Below, piece after piece: positions 46,655 through 52,499 of a stretch of DNA of 64,000 bases (position 1 is its first letter; each line of letters opens with the position of its first letter). A model generated the notes under the pieces. The model saw nothing but the letters and a program-made list of their open reading frames with translations, was not told the origin of the DNA and ran no database searches. The stretch lies in the UHGV virus genome UHGV-0211740. One strand, written 5' to 3'. The DNA is from a virus. A program made the position numbers and the translations under genes.

Positions 46655-48024
46655 TGGAAAAAGGGCAGTACGATGTAGGCACAGATGCTGCCCTTGTTGC
46701 AATCATGAGTGGTGAGAATGTCTTCGTAAGTGGACCTGGTGGAACCGGGAAGACATATCTTATCAACATGATCCAGTCCATGTATGGAGACTCTTGCATA
46801 ACGGTTGCCCCGACAGGGGTAGCCGCTTTAAACGTTAATGGAGCAACAGCGCACCGAACTTTCGATCTTGCCGCAGGTGTGAGCATGGAGTCAGACTGGA
46901 CAGCAATAAGGGCAAAAACAGCAAAGCCTCTGAAAAGCAAGGCATTTACCATCCTAATTATCGATGAAATCTCTATGATCCGTGCTGACAAGTTCATAGA
47001 GATGGATAGAAAACTCCGCTTTCTTCGGAAAAATGACAAACCTTTCGGAGGCATTCAGGTGTTATTGTTTGGAGATTTCTACCAAGCTCCTCCAGTTGTC
47101 TCTTCTATGGAGAAAGAAGCCTACTTCAACTTCTACCACACAGATCTGTGTTGCTATACAGAGTCTTGGGAGGATCTTAATCTTCACAATATAGCTTTAG
47201 TAGACCAGTTCCGTCAGGAATCTGTTCGCTTCGCCACAATGTTGAACTGTGTTCGTGAAGGTCGTCGCATAAAAGAGGTTGTAGCAGAGCTTAACACTCG
47301 TTGCTATCATGGTGGTGTCCCAACAGATGCCTTGACCATCTGTGCCACCAATAAGCAAGCAGAGGAGGTGAACAGACGTTTCTATGATGCCATCAAGGCT
47401 CCAGAGAAGACCTACATTGGTAAAATGAAAGGTAAGTTCCCCTCCACACTGCCTGTGGAGCAGGAAATGAGGCTGAAGATAGGGATGAAGGTTATGATAA
47501 CCTCAAACGATGTTGACCCGACACACAAAGTTCCGTACTATGTCAACGGGACACGCGCCACAGTGGTAAAATTCAAGACCAAGTCTGTGGTGGTTGAGCT
47601 GGAAGACGGGACACAGGTTGAAATTGAGCCGAGATTGTGGGAGAATAACGAGTACAAACCTTCCCAGAGGTACAATATTGCCGAAAGGAAGATGGAGAAG
47701 TTCATAGAGAGGGTTGTGATCGGGTCTTATGAGCAACTTCCTTTGAAATCTGGGTACGCAGTAACATCGCATAAAAGTCAAGGACTTACGTTAGATTGTT
47801 ACAACCTAGACCTCGGAAAGAACGGAGCTTTCTCTCCCGGAATGACGTATGTTGCCTTGAGTCGGGTTAAGACGATACAAGGAATAAACTTGTTGCGTCC
47901 ATTAAGAGAGGTGGATATTATTGTTGACCCGAGAGTCGTAGAGTTTTATAATACAACTTTCCCTGGCTTAGACGAGAAAGTCAGGAAAGATTTTGAAACT
48001 AGAGCAGAAAAGGGGGACGTATGA
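46654..48024 (+). CDS. SF1B helicase, Dda/RecD/Pif1-like
   Basis: Walker A GPGGTGKT; Walker B ILIIDEISM; GDFYQAPPV; VTSHKSQGLT. Confidence 0.75.
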   Translation: MEKGQYDVGTDAALVAIMSGENVFVSGPGGTGKTYLINMIQSMYGDSCITVAPTGVAALNVNGATAHRTFDLAAGVSMESDWTAIRAKTAKPLKSKAFTILIIDEISMIRADKFIEMDRKLRFLRKNDKPFGGIQVLLFGDFYQAPPVVSSMEKEAYFNFYHTDLCCYTESWEDLNLHNIALVDQFRQESVRFATMLNCVREGRRIKEVVAELNTRCYHGGVPTDALTICATNKQAEEVNRRFYDAIKAPEKTYIGKMKGKFPSTLPVEQEMRLKIGMKVMITSNDVDPTHKVPYYVNGTRATVVKFKTKSVVVELEDGTQVEIEPRLWENNEYKPSQRYNIAERKMEKFIERVVIGSYEQLPLKSGYAVTSHKSQGLTLDCYNLDLGKNGAFSPGMTYVALSRVKTIQGINLLRPLREVDIIVDPRVVEFYNTTFPGLDEKVRKDFETRAEKGDV

Positions 48025-48362
48025 GTTTGTGGAGAAATATAGTTAACTACGTGTGCGGTAATCCAAATCCTGAAGAGAAGGATGTTGTGATTCACGATTT
48101 TACTAAAAGATCTCGTGAAAAAGACCTACTGCTAATGAGAGTTGTTGATAAAGATCCTGCAGTAGGGGACTGGGCAGGTTTTGCGTTCACATCGGACAAA
48201 TATACCTTTAACAAAGGTGACTATCTTGTTGTGGATTTTAACGAAGACATCGAGGGTGCTGAACCTTACTACCAAACCCTTATTGTTGCAGAGTGTATCG
48301 AGCTCTCTGCAACCGCGCACAGTTTAATTCTTTTTGAGCTTGACTCTGAAGATCTTCAGTAG
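48021..48362 (+). CDS. hypothetical protein
   Basis: ORF track; 4-nt overlap with helicase. Confidence 0.45.
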   Translation: MSLWRNIVNYVCGNPNPEEKDVVIHDFTKRSREKDLLLMRVVDKDPAVGDWAGFAFTSDKYTFNKGDYLVVDFNEDIEGAEPYYQTLIVAECIELSATAHSLILFELDSEDLQ

Positions 48363-48379
48363 TAAGATGTGAGTATAAA

Positions 48380-48397
48380 GGGGAGGAACTCCTCCCC
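48380..48397. promoter_or_regulatory. intergenic hairpin GGGGAGG-AACT-CCTCCCC
   Basis: 7-bp perfect stem; no T-tract; same GGGAGG...CCTCCC family as the hairpin before the polymerase gene. Confidence 0.35.
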
Positions 48398-48422
48398 ACA
48401 AAACTAAGGAGAGCACCAAACG

Positions 48423-48725
48423 ATGAAGCGTTATAAACCCTATACTTTTGAAATCGATTTCGAACTGGATGATATGTTTACTGTGGAGGCTCAGGCGGTT
48501 GTCCAGTTGCCAGACCCTGAGTGTCATGATTCCGATGTTGATTATTATGGATTTAGACAGATCACGGATGTGCATGTTTACCACAACGGTGAAGAGATTG
48601 ACTTTCACCAACTACCAAACGATCTGCGCCACTCGATTTACAAACGTGCAGCCCGTGAACTGGAGTCTTATCTAGATGCAGCGACAACAGCGGCTGCATT
48701 TGCTGAAGAGGTAGGAGGTTTCTGA
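48423..48725 (+). CDS. hypothetical small protein
   Basis: ORF track; AAGGAGAG RBS. Confidence 0.5.
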   Translation: MKRYKPYTFEIDFELDDMFTVEAQAVVQLPDPECHDSDVDYYGFRQITDVHVYHNGEEIDFHQLPNDLRHSIYKRAARELESYLDAATTAAAFAEEVGGF

Positions 48726-49132: not shown

Positions 49133-49615
49133 ATGTCGGATTTTATGTGGAAAGTAGGTTACGCTTCTCCGGAAATGTGTGAGGCCTGTTTTGTAAAAAT
49201 AGGACGAGAAGATATTGACAAAGTGATCCTTAAGTTTCGTGATGTAGCTGTGATCGGCAACCGAGTGCTTAAGCACTTAAAGAATCTGAAGCTCACCAAA
49301 AAGAAGTTCTTTGGGCTTTTCGAAGAAAAAGTCGATGCTTGGACCCATTGCATCCAGGAAGCTAAATCTCACTACAGTGCTATCGTTACTCCAGAACGGG
49401 TAGCCAAGATGGAAGGATTTATCAACAGCACAGAGTTTGAGTGCCTAAAGGCTGCCCTTAATAGTTATCCAAAATGCCTCAAACACCTTGACAAATATGT
49501 AGAAAAGGATGGGGAAATGTATCTCACCCTTGACGCATACTATGAGATGCAAGAAATTTTAAATTTAGATTTGACATTGGTATCCACCGAGTATACAATA
49601 GGTATCCGGGTTTAA
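49133..49615 (+). CDS. hypothetical protein
   Basis: ORF track; GAGGAGAAGGAG RBS. Confidence 0.5.
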   Translation: MSDFMWKVGYASPEMCEACFVKIGREDIDKVILKFRDVAVIGNRVLKHLKNLKLTKKKFFGLFEEKVDAWTHCIQEAKSHYSAIVTPERVAKMEGFINSTEFECLKAALNSYPKCLKHLDKYVEKDGEMYLTLDAYYEMQEILNLDLTLVSTEYTIGIRV

Positions 49616-49620
49616 CACTA

Positions 49621-49648
49621 GGCCCTGCCCGAAAGGGTGGGGCTTTTT
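49621..49648 (+). terminator. rho-independent terminator (GGCCCTGCC-GAAA-GGGTGGGGC-TTTTT)
   Basis: GNRA-loop hairpin then T5; near-identical copy at 60037. Confidence 0.6.
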
Positions 49649-49666
49649 GCATTAGGAGACAGCAAA

Positions 49667-50431
49667 TTGAAATTTATCTATAAAGAACACTACCACAAAG
49701 GTGTTGTGTGGAGTCTATTTGACGGGTCTGGCGGTGCAGTCATTGACTGGGCAAAAGCTGGGTATCTGTGCCTGTGCTTTAACGCAGAAGGTGCTGACCA
49801 CGGCAGTTATGCAGAGGTGATAACCGATCATCCAAATATTCACTATGTAGATTATTGGATTGATCCATGGTTTCCTCAGGAAACTTTCTGCATGTACCCA
49901 GCTCCGGACTTTGTTCTTGCATTTCCTCCGTGCACTCACTTAGCGGTGTCCGGTGCTGCACACTTTAAGAAGAAACTGGCTAAGGATCCGCTGATCCAAA
50001 TTAATGCTGTAAAGGATGCTCGGGTTGCGGAAGAGTTGGGAGAGATTTACGATTGCCCGTGGCATGTAGAGAATCCTGTTGGAGTTATGTCCACATTGTG
50101 GCGCAAACCTGACTACCGTTTTCACCCTTCTGATTATGGCGGGTATTTACCGGAAGATGATGTAAACCCATGGTTTCCTGAATTTATAGCTCCACGTGAT
50201 GCCTATCCAAAAATAACTTGCGGATGGATAGGTAATGGATTTATAATCCCAGCCACAAAACCTGTCCCGCAAATAGTTGATGTGGTTAGCGGTTATTCCA
50301 TGCAACACGCTAAGCTAGGTGGAAAAAGTGCAAGGACGAAGATGATTCGAAGCCTTACACCACGTGGCTGGGCAAAAGCAGTATTCTTAGCAAACGAGCC
50401 TGCAGTAAGGAGCAGAATTAATGGGAAGTAA
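49667..50431 (+). CDS. DNA cytosine-5 methyltransferase-like protein (short, atypical)
   Basis: ORF track 49637..50431; TTG 49667 after AGGAG; motif I LFDGSGG, motif IV-like FPPCTHLAVSG, motif VI-like VENPVG; start uncertain. Confidence 0.4.
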   Translation: MKFIYKEHYHKGVVWSLFDGSGGAVIDWAKAGYLCLCFNAEGADHGSYAEVITDHPNIHYVDYWIDPWFPQETFCMYPAPDFVLAFPPCTHLAVSGAAHFKKKLAKDPLIQINAVKDARVAEELGEIYDCPWHVENPVGVMSTLWRKPDYRFHPSDYGGYLPEDDVNPWFPEFIAPRDAYPKITCGWIGNGFIIPATKPVPQIVDVVSGYSMQHAKLGGKSARTKMIRSLTPRGWAKAVFLANEPAVRSRINGK

Positions 50432-52499
50432 ATTCATGGCATCTGCATATAACCGTTTCGGTGAGCCAAACCCGAAAGCAACTAAGTATAAAAGTGGGGG
50501 AAGTGTGAAACGAGACTATCGTGATGAAAAAGAAGTTGAAACTGTAGAGACTGTTTTAGAAAATACTAAAATTGTTCCTGTTCCACAACAAAATATCGGA
50601 CTGATGGCTGCACAGTATTTCGGTGTACGATCATCCCTATCCCAAGAGGATGGTGTAACTGTTACTGCCACCTACTTCCCGTATTATGACCGCTACGGGA
50701 ATCTATCTGGCTTTAAAAAGCGCGACTGGACAATCCCTAAAGAGCAAAGGGGCCATTTCTCAGTTGTTGGCATAGTAAAAGCCAACTCCCAGATGTTTGG
50801 TCAAAAGCTGTGTGCATCCTCCAACAACCGTAAGCAGATTAACGTTTGTGAGGGGGAAGGTGATGTTATTGCAGCGTGGCAGGCTGCATATCAGATACAA
50901 GTAAAAGGAATTCTCACCAATGCCAAGGCCCCAGCAAAGGTTAAGCAGTGGGCTAAAGAGGTCCAGGACGGGATCGATGCAGTTATCAACGGGGGTGATC
51001 TGGCAGGAAAACCATGTCTACCTTTTGTTGGAATTAACTGTGGGTGTGCAAACGCAGTAGATACTTTTGCAAACAATGAGAAATTTATCCGTAGCTACGG
51101 AACAGTGGTCCTTGCAATGGACAACGATGCAGCTAACGAGGTAGAGAAGCAAAAACACGTTATCAAAGGTGTTGAAGCCACACATAATATTGCAGCATTT
51201 TTGATGGCTGATAATGTTTACCATGTGGAATACCCTGGTGAGGTGAACGACCCTGACGGTGTAAAAGATATCCGTGACATGCTGAAGGCTAAAAAGCTGG
51301 AAGATATTGTCAACATGTTCCGTCACCCAGTTAAATATGTGCCTGATGCTGTATCTGATTTAGAAGACTTTTCCATTGAATCTCTTCGTAAGAAGACTTC
51401 CAATGGCGTGGATATCAGTGCAGAGTTCCCTAAACTACAGAAGATGCTGAAAGGACTCCACAAAGGCACCTTGATGATGCTGACAGGCCCATCTGGTGGT
51501 GGTAAAACAACTGTAGCCAAGAAACTGGAACACTGCATTGCAAGATATTTGATGGATCCGACATGCCCTAAAGCCGATGATTATGAAGAGGATGATCGCC
51601 TGTGTATGATCCACCTTGAAGAGGATCCTGAGGAAGCAATAAACTCTCTATACGCTAACCAGTTGGGGTTTGATGTTAAAGAGTTTGTTGAAGACCCTAG
51701 TCAGTTCCTGACCGATCAGGAGCATGCTGAGATTCACCAATCTTGGGCCAAAGCTGGAAAAATCAAAGTGTTCAAGCATTTTGGTTCTATCCCTGTAGAT
51801 GAGCTGATCACTAAGCTTAAACAAATGGTGTGTCTGTATCACTGCCGTTACATTGTGCTGGATCACCTGTCCATGGTAATTTCAGGGCTTAATGTTAAGG
51901 ATGAGCGAAAAGAACTTGACATGGCTATGACTCAACTAGCCGCGTTCTGTAAGCAGTTTAATGTATTTATCTTGGTGATCGCTCACCTGAAACGCACAGA
52001 GATTGTGCCTCCAAAGGACAAGGATGGGAATCCGTTACCTTTCTGGTATCCTGTACGAAAAGAGAACCTTCGAGGTAGTGCTGGATTGGAACAACTTAGC
52101 TGGGTAGTTGTTGGGGTAGAGGCAGAAGAGATGGTGGATCGTTCCCGTGGACGTGTCCGGCTGGTAGGTCTTAAAAACCGCCCAGCAAAAACGTTAGGCA
52201 TTGCGGACACCTTAGTTATGGATCCTCACACAGGTAAGTTCCATGATGCCAGCAATTGGTACTGGGACAAAGAAATGCAGATGTTCACAGACGGCGAAGG
52301 TGGGGAGGTTGTTTGGAGACCTCAAGCTATGTTTGAGGATCAAGAGCACGCAGTTGTAGAAACACCTGTAGGCAGGGTTGTGGCTGATAAGGTTGTAACT
52401 CCTACTGTTAACCCTGTTGACACACAAGAAGACCTTCCGTATGATGATCCGTCCTCTGACCCTGTTCCCGGTTTTGAAGACGATGAAACACCTTTTTAA
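50421..52499 (+). CDS. primase-helicase (TOPRIM plus DnaB-family SF4 helicase)
   Basis: TOPRIM CEGEGD and MDNDAANE; helicase Walker A GPSGGGKTT, Walker B IVLDHLS. Confidence 0.7.
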   Translation: MGSKFMASAYNRFGEPNPKATKYKSGGSVKRDYRDEKEVETVETVLENTKIVPVPQQNIGLMAAQYFGVRSSLSQEDGVTVTATYFPYYDRYGNLSGFKKRDWTIPKEQRGHFSVVGIVKANSQMFGQKLCASSNNRKQINVCEGEGDVIAAWQAAYQIQVKGILTNAKAPAKVKQWAKEVQDGIDAVINGGDLAGKPCLPFVGINCGCANAVDTFANNEKFIRSYGTVVLAMDNDAANEVEKQKHVIKGVEATHNIAAFLMADNVYHVEYPGEVNDPDGVKDIRDMLKAKKLEDIVNMFRHPVKYVPDAVSDLEDFSIESLRKKTSNGVDISAEFPKLQKMLKGLHKGTLMMLTGPSGGGKTTVAKKLEHCIARYLMDPTCPKADDYEEDDRLCMIHLEEDPEEAINSLYANQLGFDVKEFVEDPSQFLTDQEHAEIHQSWAKAGKIKVFKHFGSIPVDELITKLKQMVCLYHCRYIVLDHLSMVISGLNVKDERKELDMAMTQLAAFCKQFNVFILVIAHLKRTEIVPPKDKDGNPLPFWYPVRKENLRGSAGLEQLSWVVVGVEAEEMVDRSRGRVRLVGLKNRPAKTLGIADTLVMDPHTGKFHDASNWYWDKEMQMFTDGEGGEVVWRPQAMFEDQEHAVVETPVGRVVADKVVTPTVNPVDTQEDLPYDDPSSDPVPGFEDDETPF

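What the first reader, a model, noticed from the sequence alone, without database searches (positions are those of the whole stretch)
49667..50431. Short cytosine-5 methyltransferase-like enzyme with a PCT instead of PCQ catalytic motif
Motif I (LFDGSGG), a motif IV-like FPPCTHLAVSG and a motif VI-like VENPVG occur in canonical order, but the protein is only ~255 aa and the usual Gln after Pro-Cys is Thr. It could be an orphan methylase for anti-restriction or an enzyme with altered chemistry. The start codon is uncertain (TTG after a terminator).
Basis: partly seen in the sequence, partly recalled or inferred. Interest (0 to 1): 0.6.

Follow-up and report, generated by a model that had tools for sequence, protein, structure and literature searches.

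The report
Compact orphan phage cytosine-5 DNA methyltransferase
This is a real, conserved gene of an rV5-like E. coli phage that encodes an unusually small cytosine-5 DNA methyltransferase-type enzyme, already labelled as such in public phage genomes but, as far as I could find, never tested biochemically.

Summary
A 254-aa ORF (TTG 49667 to TAA 50431) carries LFDGSGG, FPPCT and VENPVG in canonical order. It is preceded by an AGGAGA ribosome-binding site and a terminator hairpin. The window is a Vequintavirus (rV5-like) genome.

PCT is a family hallmark (118/120 close relatives, 97/114 distant ones), not an oddity of this gene. The residue after Pro-Cys also varies elsewhere: DNMT3A has PCN, SpCmoX PCS and Bacillus phage JBP901 PCT. 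It therefore says nothing about altered chemistry.

The short length is real and family-wide (median 233 aa). The target-recognition region is minimal, motif VIII is non-canonical, and the protein ends soon after a motif IX-like RSLTPRG with no recognisable motif X.

The most likely function is an orphan, replication-module, SAM-dependent DNA C5-cytosine methyltransferase of unknown specificity. It is ordinary in kind and already annotated. The subfamily is uncharacterised, and I found no experimental data.

The parts
49571..49599 (+). Promoter-like site TTGACA-17-TACAAT (11 of 12), inside the end of the upstream ORF. Function not shown.
   Evidence: Such matches are as frequent in shuffled sequence (8 found versus 7.2 expected), so this is only a lead.
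49620..49645 (+). Terminator-like hairpin with T-run, between the upstream ORF (stop at 49615) and the methyltransferase gene.
   Evidence: 11 pairs, 7 G-C, loop of 4.
49654..49659 (+). Ribosome-binding site AGGAGA, 7 nt before the TTG start.
   Evidence: Read from the sequence.
49667..50431 (+). CDS of 254 aa with a TTG start: a compact C5-cytosine DNA methyltransferase-like protein (PHROG 757).
49715..49735 (+). Motif I, LFDGSGG (residues 17-23), the AdoMet-binding loop after strand beta1.
   Evidence: hhalign pairs it with motif I of M.HhaI, DNMT3A and SpCmoX. Strand 13-17 and helix 23-30 in the model.
49922..49936 (+). Motif IV, FPPCT (residues 86-90), with Cys89 as the presumed catalytic nucleophile.
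   Evidence: Aligned to GFPCQ of M.HhaI. Cys is present in 106/114 representatives and Thr90 in 97/114. PPCT occurs in 118/120 close relatives.
50066..50083 (+). Motif VI-like VENPVG (residues 134-139), at the end of strand 132-137. Glu135 is the presumed equivalent of the ENV glutamate.
   Evidence: E135 in 111/114, N136 in 106/114 and P137 in 113/114 representatives. Position and strand from the model. Not aligned by hhalign; equivalence is inferred from order and secondary structure.
50195..50239 (+). Family-specific conserved block RDAYPKITCGWIGNG (residues 177-191) at strand 184-189. This is where canonical enzymes have motif VIII (QxRxR).
   Evidence: D178, Y180, K182, T184 and W187 are nearly invariant. 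The resemblance to DNMT3A RARYFWGN is by eye only.
50348..50368 (+). Motif IX-like RSLTPRG (residues 228-234). In most relatives only 9-11 residues follow it.
   Evidence: Best local hhalign match of the C-terminal part is to RKLTPRECAR of canonical enzymes (E 0.0037). R228 in 110/114, P232 in 108/114 and G234 in 110/114. Tail length.
50421..52499 (+). Downstream replicative primase/helicase gene. Its ATG overlaps the methyltransferase stop by 11 nt (same transcription unit, likely translational coupling).
   Evidence: Annotation of the FV3 orthologue.

Best explanation
The gene encodes an orphan, phage-encoded DNA cytosine-5 methyltransferase of a compact subfamily (PHROG 757).

**Inferred mechanism, by analogy with M.HhaI and DNMT3.**
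- The enzyme binds S-adenosylmethionine through the motif I loop.
- It flips a target cytosine out of the helix.
- Cys89 of FPPCT attacks C6, and Glu135 of ENP contacts N3/N4.
- The methyl group is transferred to C5, and Cys89 is then eliminated.

**Inferred biology.**
- The gene is expressed with the replication genes. It overlaps the primase/helicase gene and lies in the helicase/polymerase module.
- It would therefore mark newly replicated phage DNA at a still unknown, probably short, sequence.
- It has no cognate endonuclease.

**Shown here:** the gene, its conservation, the fold, motifs I and IV, and the genomic context.

**Inferred only:** cofactor, DNA as substrate, catalysis, and biological role.
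For: **Family and conservation**
- PHROG 757 "DNA methyltransferase", E 1.7e-86.
- Orthologues in 118 Vequintavirus-type records carry the names DNA methyltransferase or DNA cytosine methyltransferase.
- 1,502 phage records hold a homologue.
- 2,057 clusters at 50% identity have E <= 1e-3, 940 at <= 1e-10 and 210 at <= 1e-30. Some of the weak matches may be canonical enzymes.

**Fold**
- AlphaFold model: pLDDT 91.5, pTM 0.90.
- Foldseek against PDB: the listed top matches are DNMT3A/B/C chains plus the prophage enzyme 3g7u, best E 1.5e-6.

**Sequence**
- PF00145 matches below threshold in 20 of 37 relatives, best E 1.3e-6.
- hhalign of the family profile against nine canonical enzymes: probability 88%, E 2.9e-6 over motifs I-IV.
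- Global mode: 96.6%, E 6e-10.
- Cys89 and Glu135 are conserved in 106 and 111 of 114 diverse representatives.

**Context and fusions**
- One relative (P0268) is fused to a complete D12 N6-adenine DNA methyltransferase (PF02086, E 2.5e-48).
- Other relatives sit inside large helicase-type phage proteins.
- The gene lies next to or near helicase genes in Vequintavirus, Dhillonvirus and two Drexlerviridae genera.
Against: - The query itself has no Pfam or NCBIfam hit at any useful threshold.
- No canonical motif X (GN[AS]V) or motif VIII (QxRxR) is recognisable. hhalign does not align anything after motif IV with confidence.
- In this clade the acidic residue at the end of beta2 (Asp in 103/114 representatives) is Asn39.
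- Vequintavirinae are very sensitive to the restriction-modification systems tested in the BASEL study. If the enzyme methylates, it gives no broad protection.
- No experimental report of 5mC in these phages, or of activity of any family member, turned up in eight literature searches.
Confidence: 0.7

Rival explanations
1. It has the same fold and covalent Cys chemistry but transfers a group other than methyl. The obvious candidate is carboxymethyl from carboxy-SAM made by the host CmoA, as in the phage enzyme CmoX.
For: - CmoX and engineered M.MpeI N374K or M.CviPI Y205K/R use carboxy-SAM because of a cationic residue at the motif X Asn position.
- This clade has (near-)invariant cationic residues in the C-terminal region: GG[K/R] in 117/117 scorable close relatives and R233.
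- E. coli makes carboxy-SAM, so no phage cmoA would be needed.
- PPC followed by a small hydroxyl residue occurs in both (PPCS versus PPCT).
Against: - Which residue, if any, occupies the Asn304 position could not be determined. The only alignments of that region are insignificant (E 0.47).
- K220 and R233 are not conserved across the wider family (44 K + 6 R, and 82 R, of 114).
- DNMT3A, an ordinary SAM methyltransferase, also has Arg in that alignment column. A cationic residue there is therefore not diagnostic.
- The CmoX signature SPPC is FPPC here.
- No CmoA or CmoY homologue is in the window.
- SAM is about 400-fold more abundant than carboxy-SAM in E. coli.
Confidence: 0.07
2. It is a catalytically weak or inactive methyltransferase-fold protein kept for another role, such as DNA binding or an accessory function at the replication fork together with the neighbouring helicase.
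For: - No canonical motif X or VIII.
- Asn replaces the usual acidic ribose-binding residue in this clade.
- Recurrent linkage and fusion to helicases.
- Some distant relatives have lost Cys and Glu altogether.
- Vequintavirinae get no visible protection from restriction.
Against: - Cys89, Glu135 and the motif I loop are under strong conservation in this clade and in about 93-97% of diverse representatives. That is hard to explain without catalysis.
- One relative is fused to an adenine DNA methyltransferase.
Confidence: 0.13
3. It methylates RNA (for example tRNA cytosine, like DNMT2) rather than DNA.
Against: - DNA enzymes score higher than DNMT2.
- The family is common in small siphoviruses of 43-52 kb, in replication modules.
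- It is fused to a DNA adenine methyltransferase in one relative.
Confidence: 0.04

Closest known systems
Bacterial and phage C5-cytosine DNA methyltransferases (Pfam PF00145; M.HhaI, M.HaeIII, E. coli Dcm)
   Same: - Motif I loop, Pro-Cys motif IV and an acidic ENx motif after beta5.
- A motif IX-like R-x-L-T-P-R.
   Different: - About 70-100 residues shorter (254 aa here, family median 233, against 327 for M.HhaI).
- PCT and ENP in place of PCQ and ENV.
- No QxRxR and no GN[AS]V motif X.
- Only about 40 residues between strand beta7 and motif IX, where canonical enzymes have the target-recognition domain.
- The query does not reach any Pfam threshold.
DNMT3A/DNMT3B catalytic domains
   Same: - Compact enzymes with a very short target-recognition region.
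- Similar local wording by eye: SLFDG(IATG), PC[NT]DLS, and F/LW-GN after motif VIII.
   Different: - 13-17% identity.
- DNMT3 keeps motifs IX and X, with GRSW aligning to GNSV.
- DNMT3 works as an oligomer with regulatory domains. Nothing indicates that here.
SpCmoX, DNA cytosine C5-carboxymethyltransferase of Synechococcus phage S-B43 (PDB 8YF3; PMC12783734)
   Same: - PPC followed by a hydroxyl residue.
   Different: - CmoX is a full-length (372 aa) canonical enzyme that aligns end to end with M.HhaI (E 3.8e-42).
- It has the SPPC signature and Arg350 in motif X, and cmoA and cmoY genes next to it.
- None of these could be shown here.
Putative prophage cytosine methyltransferases 3G7U (CP-933R, E. 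coli O157) and 3LX6 (Shigella flexneri)
   Different: Longer proteins (deposited chains 376 and 410 aa) that match M.HhaI by sequence (E 1.5e-18 and 1.5e-44). The query does not: tblastn with M.HhaI finds nothing in the window.

Membership tests
C5-cytosine DNA methyltransferases (PF00145 superfamily) | Class I methyltransferase fold with the C5-methyltransferase arrangement | tested here: met
   [not shown]
C5-cytosine DNA methyltransferases (PF00145 superfamily) | Motif I F-x-G-x-G AdoMet loop | tested here: met
   LFDGSGG at residues 17-23, aligned to motif I of canonical enzymes. In distant relatives the first Gly is often replaced (F-D-x-[TS]-G).
C5-cytosine DNA methyltransferases (PF00145 superfamily) | Motif IV Pro-Cys with catalytic cysteine | tested here: met
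   FPPCT aligned to GFPCQ. Cys is conserved in 106/114 representatives. The Gln after Cys is not a defining residue: N in DNMT3A, S in SpCmoX, T or E in phage enzymes.
C5-cytosine DNA methyltransferases (PF00145 superfamily) | Motif VI E-N-V glutamate | tested here: inconclusive
   ENP lies at the end of the fifth strand, with Glu in 111/114 representatives. The position fits, but no significant alignment to ENV was obtained.
C5-cytosine DNA methyltransferases (PF00145 superfamily) | Motif VIII Q-x-R-x-R | tested here: not met
   No such motif is present. The corresponding strand carries the conserved R-D-x-Y-x-K-x-T-C-x-W.
C5-cytosine DNA methyltransferases (PF00145 superfamily) | Motif IX R-x-L-T-P-R-E | tested here: inconclusive
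   RSLTPRG is the best local match to motif IX, but over only 11 columns (E 0.0037, probability 9%). The canonical Glu is Gly here.
C5-cytosine DNA methyltransferases (PF00145 superfamily) | Motif X G-N-[AS]-V after motif IX | tested here: not met
   Relatives end a median of 11 residues after SLTPRG. The only motif X-like string (KLGGKS, before motif IX) aligns insignificantly (E 0.47) and is not conserved family-wide. Model coordinates could not be inspected, so which helix fills the motif X place is unknown.
C5-cytosine DNA methyltransferases (PF00145 superfamily) | Score above Pfam/NCBIfam curated cut-off | tested here: not met
   No PF00145 or TIGR00675 hit for the query. There are sub-threshold hits in 20/37 relatives.
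C5-cytosine DNA methyltransferases (PF00145 superfamily) | AdoMet-dependent formation of 5-methylcytosine in DNA | not testable with these tools
   No experimental report was found in eight searches of the paper library.
CmoX DNA C5-carboxymethyltransferases | SPPC motif plus Arg at the M.HhaI Asn304 position (PMC12783734) | tested here: inconclusive
   FPPC rather than SPPC. The Asn304-equivalent could not be located. Cationic K220 and R233 are clade-specific.
CmoX DNA C5-carboxymethyltransferases | Phage cmoA (and often cmoY ligase) in the neighbourhood | tested here: not met
   tblastn with SpCmoA and SpCmoY finds nothing better than E 0.26 in the 64-kb window. The rest of the genome was not examined, and the host has its own CmoA.
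Restriction-modification system methyltransferase | Adjacent cognate restriction endonuclease | tested here: not met
   Neighbours here are small hypothetical genes and the primase/helicase. The contexts in Dhillonvirus and Drexlerviridae also show no restriction endonuclease; the Dhillonvirus locus has only a small putative homing endonuclease next to the gene.

The most novel reading that the evidence does not exclude
PHROG 757 could be a distinct minimal class of cytosine-C5-modifying enzymes (about 225 aa). Such a class would work without a canonical motif X or target-recognition domain. It might differ from classical enzymes in cofactor use, for example host carboxy-SAM through the clade-specific Lys220 or Arg233. 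It might instead differ in how it finds its targets, for example by coupling to the adjacent or fused helicase at the replication fork rather than by reading a long recognition sequence.
Probability: 0.1. Interest if true: 0.7.

Novelty: already known. Interest (0 to 1): 0.27.

Why it matters
As an annotation it adds nothing. Orthologues that are 98-99.6% identical are already deposited and named DNA (cytosine) methyltransferase.

What remains open is biochemical. This compact family sits in about 1,500 sequenced phage genomes of Escherichia, Klebsiella, Salmonella, Vibrio and others. It lacks two of the classical conserved motifs, and I found no reported specificity or activity.

If it is active, it would be among the smallest cytosine-5 methyltransferases. 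That could make it a useful tool enzyme. It would also be a factor to consider when phage DNA is judged for restriction sensitivity, or is sequenced with methylation-aware methods.

Tried and rejected
**1. CpG depletion as a clue to specificity.** The window has CpG at 0.63 and TpG/CpA at 1.20 of expectation, which looks like a methylation-deamination footprint. I rejected the link for two reasons.
- A Felix O1 stretch (0.42) and a T5 stretch (0.73) are also depleted.
- Stretches of 6-9 kb from three other phages that carry a homologue (Dhillonvirus, Webervirus, Hanrivervirus) are not depleted (1.12-1.34).

**2. Locating the motif X / Asn304 equivalent to test the carboxy-SAM idea.** hhalign in local and global modes was run against canonical enzymes, DNMT3A and SpCmoX. 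It gave only insignificant and mutually inconsistent placements: KLGGKS versus PRG[FW].

**3. Direct sequence searches.**
- phmmer and a family profile against PDB gave only M.HaeIII at E about 1.
- Pfam and NCBIfam gave no usable hit for the query.
- tblastn with M.HhaI finds nothing in the window.

**4. Literature.** Eight searches looked for rV5/Vequintavirus methylation, orphan phage cytosine methyltransferases, nanopore 5mC in coliphages and restriction-digest resistance. Targeted reading followed. None gave experimental data on this family. One review (PMC3837797) is not held.

**5. GTG 49637 as the start codon.** Rejected. It lies within the terminator stem, has no ribosome-binding site, and relatives start at the TTG position.

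Full report
**What is in the sequence.**
The region holds one ORF on the + strand, 49637..50431 in its longest form. The TTG at 49667 is the credible start.
- AGGAGA lies 7 nt upstream (49654-49659).
- The alternative GTG at 49637 sits inside a terminator-like hairpin (49620-49645, 11 pairs followed by a T-run) that closes the upstream gene.
- The TTG start gives 254 aa. This matches the annotated orthologue in phage FV3 (765 bp) and the cluster representative P0001 (254 aa, 98% identity).
- An 80%-identical relative starts at the same residue.

The stop codon overlaps by 11 nt the ATG of the next gene (50421-52499), the replicative primase/helicase.

**Where the window comes from.**
A 2.5-kb stretch around the gene matches 118 phage records, nearly all rV5-like Vequintavirus genomes. 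Identity is 93-97%, best with OX460980 at 97.4%. In those records the orthologue is named hypothetical protein, DNA methyltransferase or DNA cytosine methyltransferase. The protein is 98-99.6% identical to its orthologues over this gene. Nucleotide identity over the surrounding 2.5-kb region is 93-94%. The gene is therefore under purifying selection.

**Family.**
- The protein is a full-length member of PHROG 757, "DNA methyltransferase" (E 1.7e-86).
- tblastn finds a homologue in 1,502 phage records of Escherichia, Klebsiella, Salmonella, Shigella, Vibrio, Cronobacter, Arthrobacter and others.
- The large protein collection gives 3,539 hits.
- A profile search of 1.84 billion cluster representatives gives 2,057 clusters at E <= 1e-3, 940 at <= 1e-10 and 210 at <= 1e-30. 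Some of the weak matches may be canonical enzymes.
- The best 150 representatives are almost all 200-260 aa, and the profile match typically reaches their C-terminal end. The small size is thus a property of the family and not a truncation in this phage.

**Is it a cytosine-5 methyltransferase?**
By direct sequence search the answer is barely visible.
- The query has no Pfam or NCBIfam hit.
- Against PDB sequences only M.HaeIII appears, at E about 1.

Three further lines of evidence settle the superfamily.

First, the fold.
- An AlphaFold model built on 37 family sequences is confident (pLDDT 91.5, pTM 0.90).
- The listed top Foldseek matches are DNMT3A/B/C chains plus the prophage enzyme 3G7U, best E 1.5e-6.

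Second, the profile comparison.
- I built a canonical alignment from M.HhaI and eight phage C5 methyltransferases. My recalled M.HhaI sequence was checked as identical to PDB 10MH.
- hhalign of the family profile against it gives probability 88% and E 2.9e-6 over motifs I to IV. LFDGSGG pairs with motif I and FPPCT with GFPCQ.
- The global mode gives 96.6% and E 6e-10.

Third, sub-threshold Pfam hits. PF00145 matches 20 of 37 relatives below its threshold, best E 1.3e-6.

Supporting a DNA-modification role, one relative (P0268) is a natural fusion to a complete D12-class N6-adenine DNA methyltransferase (PF02086, E 2.5e-48). Viral structure matches also include large helicase-type proteins that contain this domain.

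**The PCT question.**
Thr after Pro-Cys is the family norm: PPCT in 118 of 120 close relatives and Thr in 97 of 114 diverse representatives.

The position after Pro-Cys also varies in other C5-fold enzymes.
- DNMT3A has PCN (sequence checked against PDB).
- SpCmoX has PCS.
- Among the canonical-length phage genes I collected, Bacillus phage JBP901 has FPCT and Haloarcula virus HCTV-16 has PPCE. These two are untested.

In the one documented case of changed chemistry, SpCmoX, the determinant is an Arg replacing the motif X Asn that contacts the transferred group. It is not the residue after Cys (PMC12783734). Engineered enzymes behave the same way (PMC13288465). PCT is therefore no argument for altered chemistry.

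**What really is unusual.**
Comparison across 114 representatives at 29-54% identity shows a conserved core:
- [SF]-L-[FY]-D-x-[TS]-G;
- an Asp at the end of beta2 (Asn39 in the clade of this phage);
- F-P-P-C-T-D-L;
- E-N-P (Glu in 111/114, Pro in 113/114);
- W-R-x-P;
- an invariant Pro154;
- R-D-x-Y-x-K-x-T-C-x-W on the strand where canonical enzymes have Q-x-R-x-R;
- an invariant Pro195;
- R-S-x-T-P-x-G-F-A-x-A-V at the end.

The last block is the best local match to motif IX (RKLTPRECAR), with weak support (E 0.0037 over 11 columns). After it, relatives have a median of only 11 residues. Canonical enzymes still have about 45 residues there, including motif X.

A motif X-like string, KLGGKS followed by a helix, lies before this block. 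It aligns with DNMT3A's LLGRSWSV only at E 0.47 and is not conserved in the wider family.

So the family has no canonical motif VIII or X. Only about 40 residues lie where the target-recognition domain normally sits. This explains both the size and the preference of the fold searches for the compact DNMT3 enzymes. Which helix fills the motif X position, and which residue sits near the transferred group, therefore remain unknown.

**Context and likely role.**
- In the window the gene follows three small hypothetical genes downstream of a helicase gene. It is overlapped by the primase/helicase gene, which is followed by the DNA polymerase gene.
- In Dhillonvirus the homologue overlaps the end of a DNA helicase gene.
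- In Webervirus and Hanrivervirus it lies two to four genes upstream of a helicase gene.
- No cognate restriction endonuclease accompanies it anywhere I looked, so it is an orphan enzyme of the replication module.

[quoted passage not shown] It also found no simple link between methyltransferase genes and restriction resistance in Drexlerviridae (PMC8594841). Any protection must therefore be narrow, limited to particular cytosine-containing sites not covered by that panel, or the modification serves another purpose.

**Carboxy-SAM rival.**
SpCmoX is a close structural neighbour, and E. coli itself produces carboxy-SAM.
- For it: Lys/Arg at the GG[K/R] position in 117/117 scorable close relatives, and Arg233.
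- Against it: neither residue is conserved family-wide. Their equivalence to Asn304/Arg350 is unproven.
- Against it: DNMT3A, a plain SAM enzyme, has Arg in that same alignment column.
- Against it: the SPPC signature is FPPC here, and no CmoA or CmoY homologue is in the window.
- Against it: SAM outnumbers carboxy-SAM about 400-fold in E. coli.

I give this rival about 7%.

**A lead that failed.**
The window is depleted in CpG (0.63) with an excess of TpG/CpA (1.20), uniformly along its length. This resembles a methylation-deamination footprint. However, a Felix O1 stretch (0.42) and a T5 stretch (0.73) show it too. Stretches of 6-9 kb from three other phages that carry a homologue do not (1.12-1.34). 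It cannot be used to infer the specificity of this enzyme.

**Verdict.**
- The gene is a conserved, already annotated component of rV5-like phages.
- The residual interest is that the whole compact family lacks two of the classical motifs and appears uncharacterised: I found no experimental data on activity, cofactor or target sequence in the held library.
- Confidence that it is a SAM-dependent DNA cytosine-5 methyltransferase is about 0.7.

Noticed in passing
window 48362-48426 (compare L001 2990-4343): Phage FV3 carries a 447-aa putative adenine methyltransferase gene (FV3ORF215) between the orthologues of the window ORFs 48021-48362 and 48423-48725. The window lacks it. The two flanking blastn matches overlap by 49 bp in the window, and tblastn with FV3ORF215 finds nothing in the window.
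   Followed up: partly
window 49571-49645: A near-consensus sigma-70-like promoter (TTGACA-17-TACAAT, 11/12) lies immediately upstream of the terminator-like hairpin that precedes the methyltransferase gene. A transcript from it would begin with that hairpin. One related record (ECML-10) has a promoter annotated somewhere in the matching 2.5-kb stretch.
   Followed up: no
whole window 1-64000: CpG is strongly under-represented (0.63) with TpG/CpA in excess (1.20), evenly along the window. CCGG (0.59) and ACGT (0.71) fall further below a Markov expectation. Stretches of Felix O1 and T5 show similar CpG depletion, so it is not specific to this phage group.
   Followed up: partly
proteins P0230, P0235, P0242 (distant family representatives): Some relatives with long N-terminal extensions have lost both the motif IV Cys (PPSR or PPGR instead of PPCT) and the Glu of ENP (ANP, SNP, LNP). 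This suggests inactive or repurposed descendants of the family.
   Followed up: no
protein P0268; BFVD entries A0A6J5SE15 and A0A6J5NPY6: The compact domain occurs fused to a D12 N6-adenine DNA methyltransferase (P0268, 563 aa). It also occurs inside 1,100-1,400-aa phage proteins, one named Helicase/UvrB. This parallels its genomic linkage to helicase genes.
   Followed up: partly
L010-L012 (Synechococcus phage S-B43, 1-150000): The CmoX-encoding cyanophage, whose enzyme modifies a GC motif according to PMC12783734, is depleted in both GpC (0.58-0.68) and CpG (0.47-0.59).
   Followed up: no
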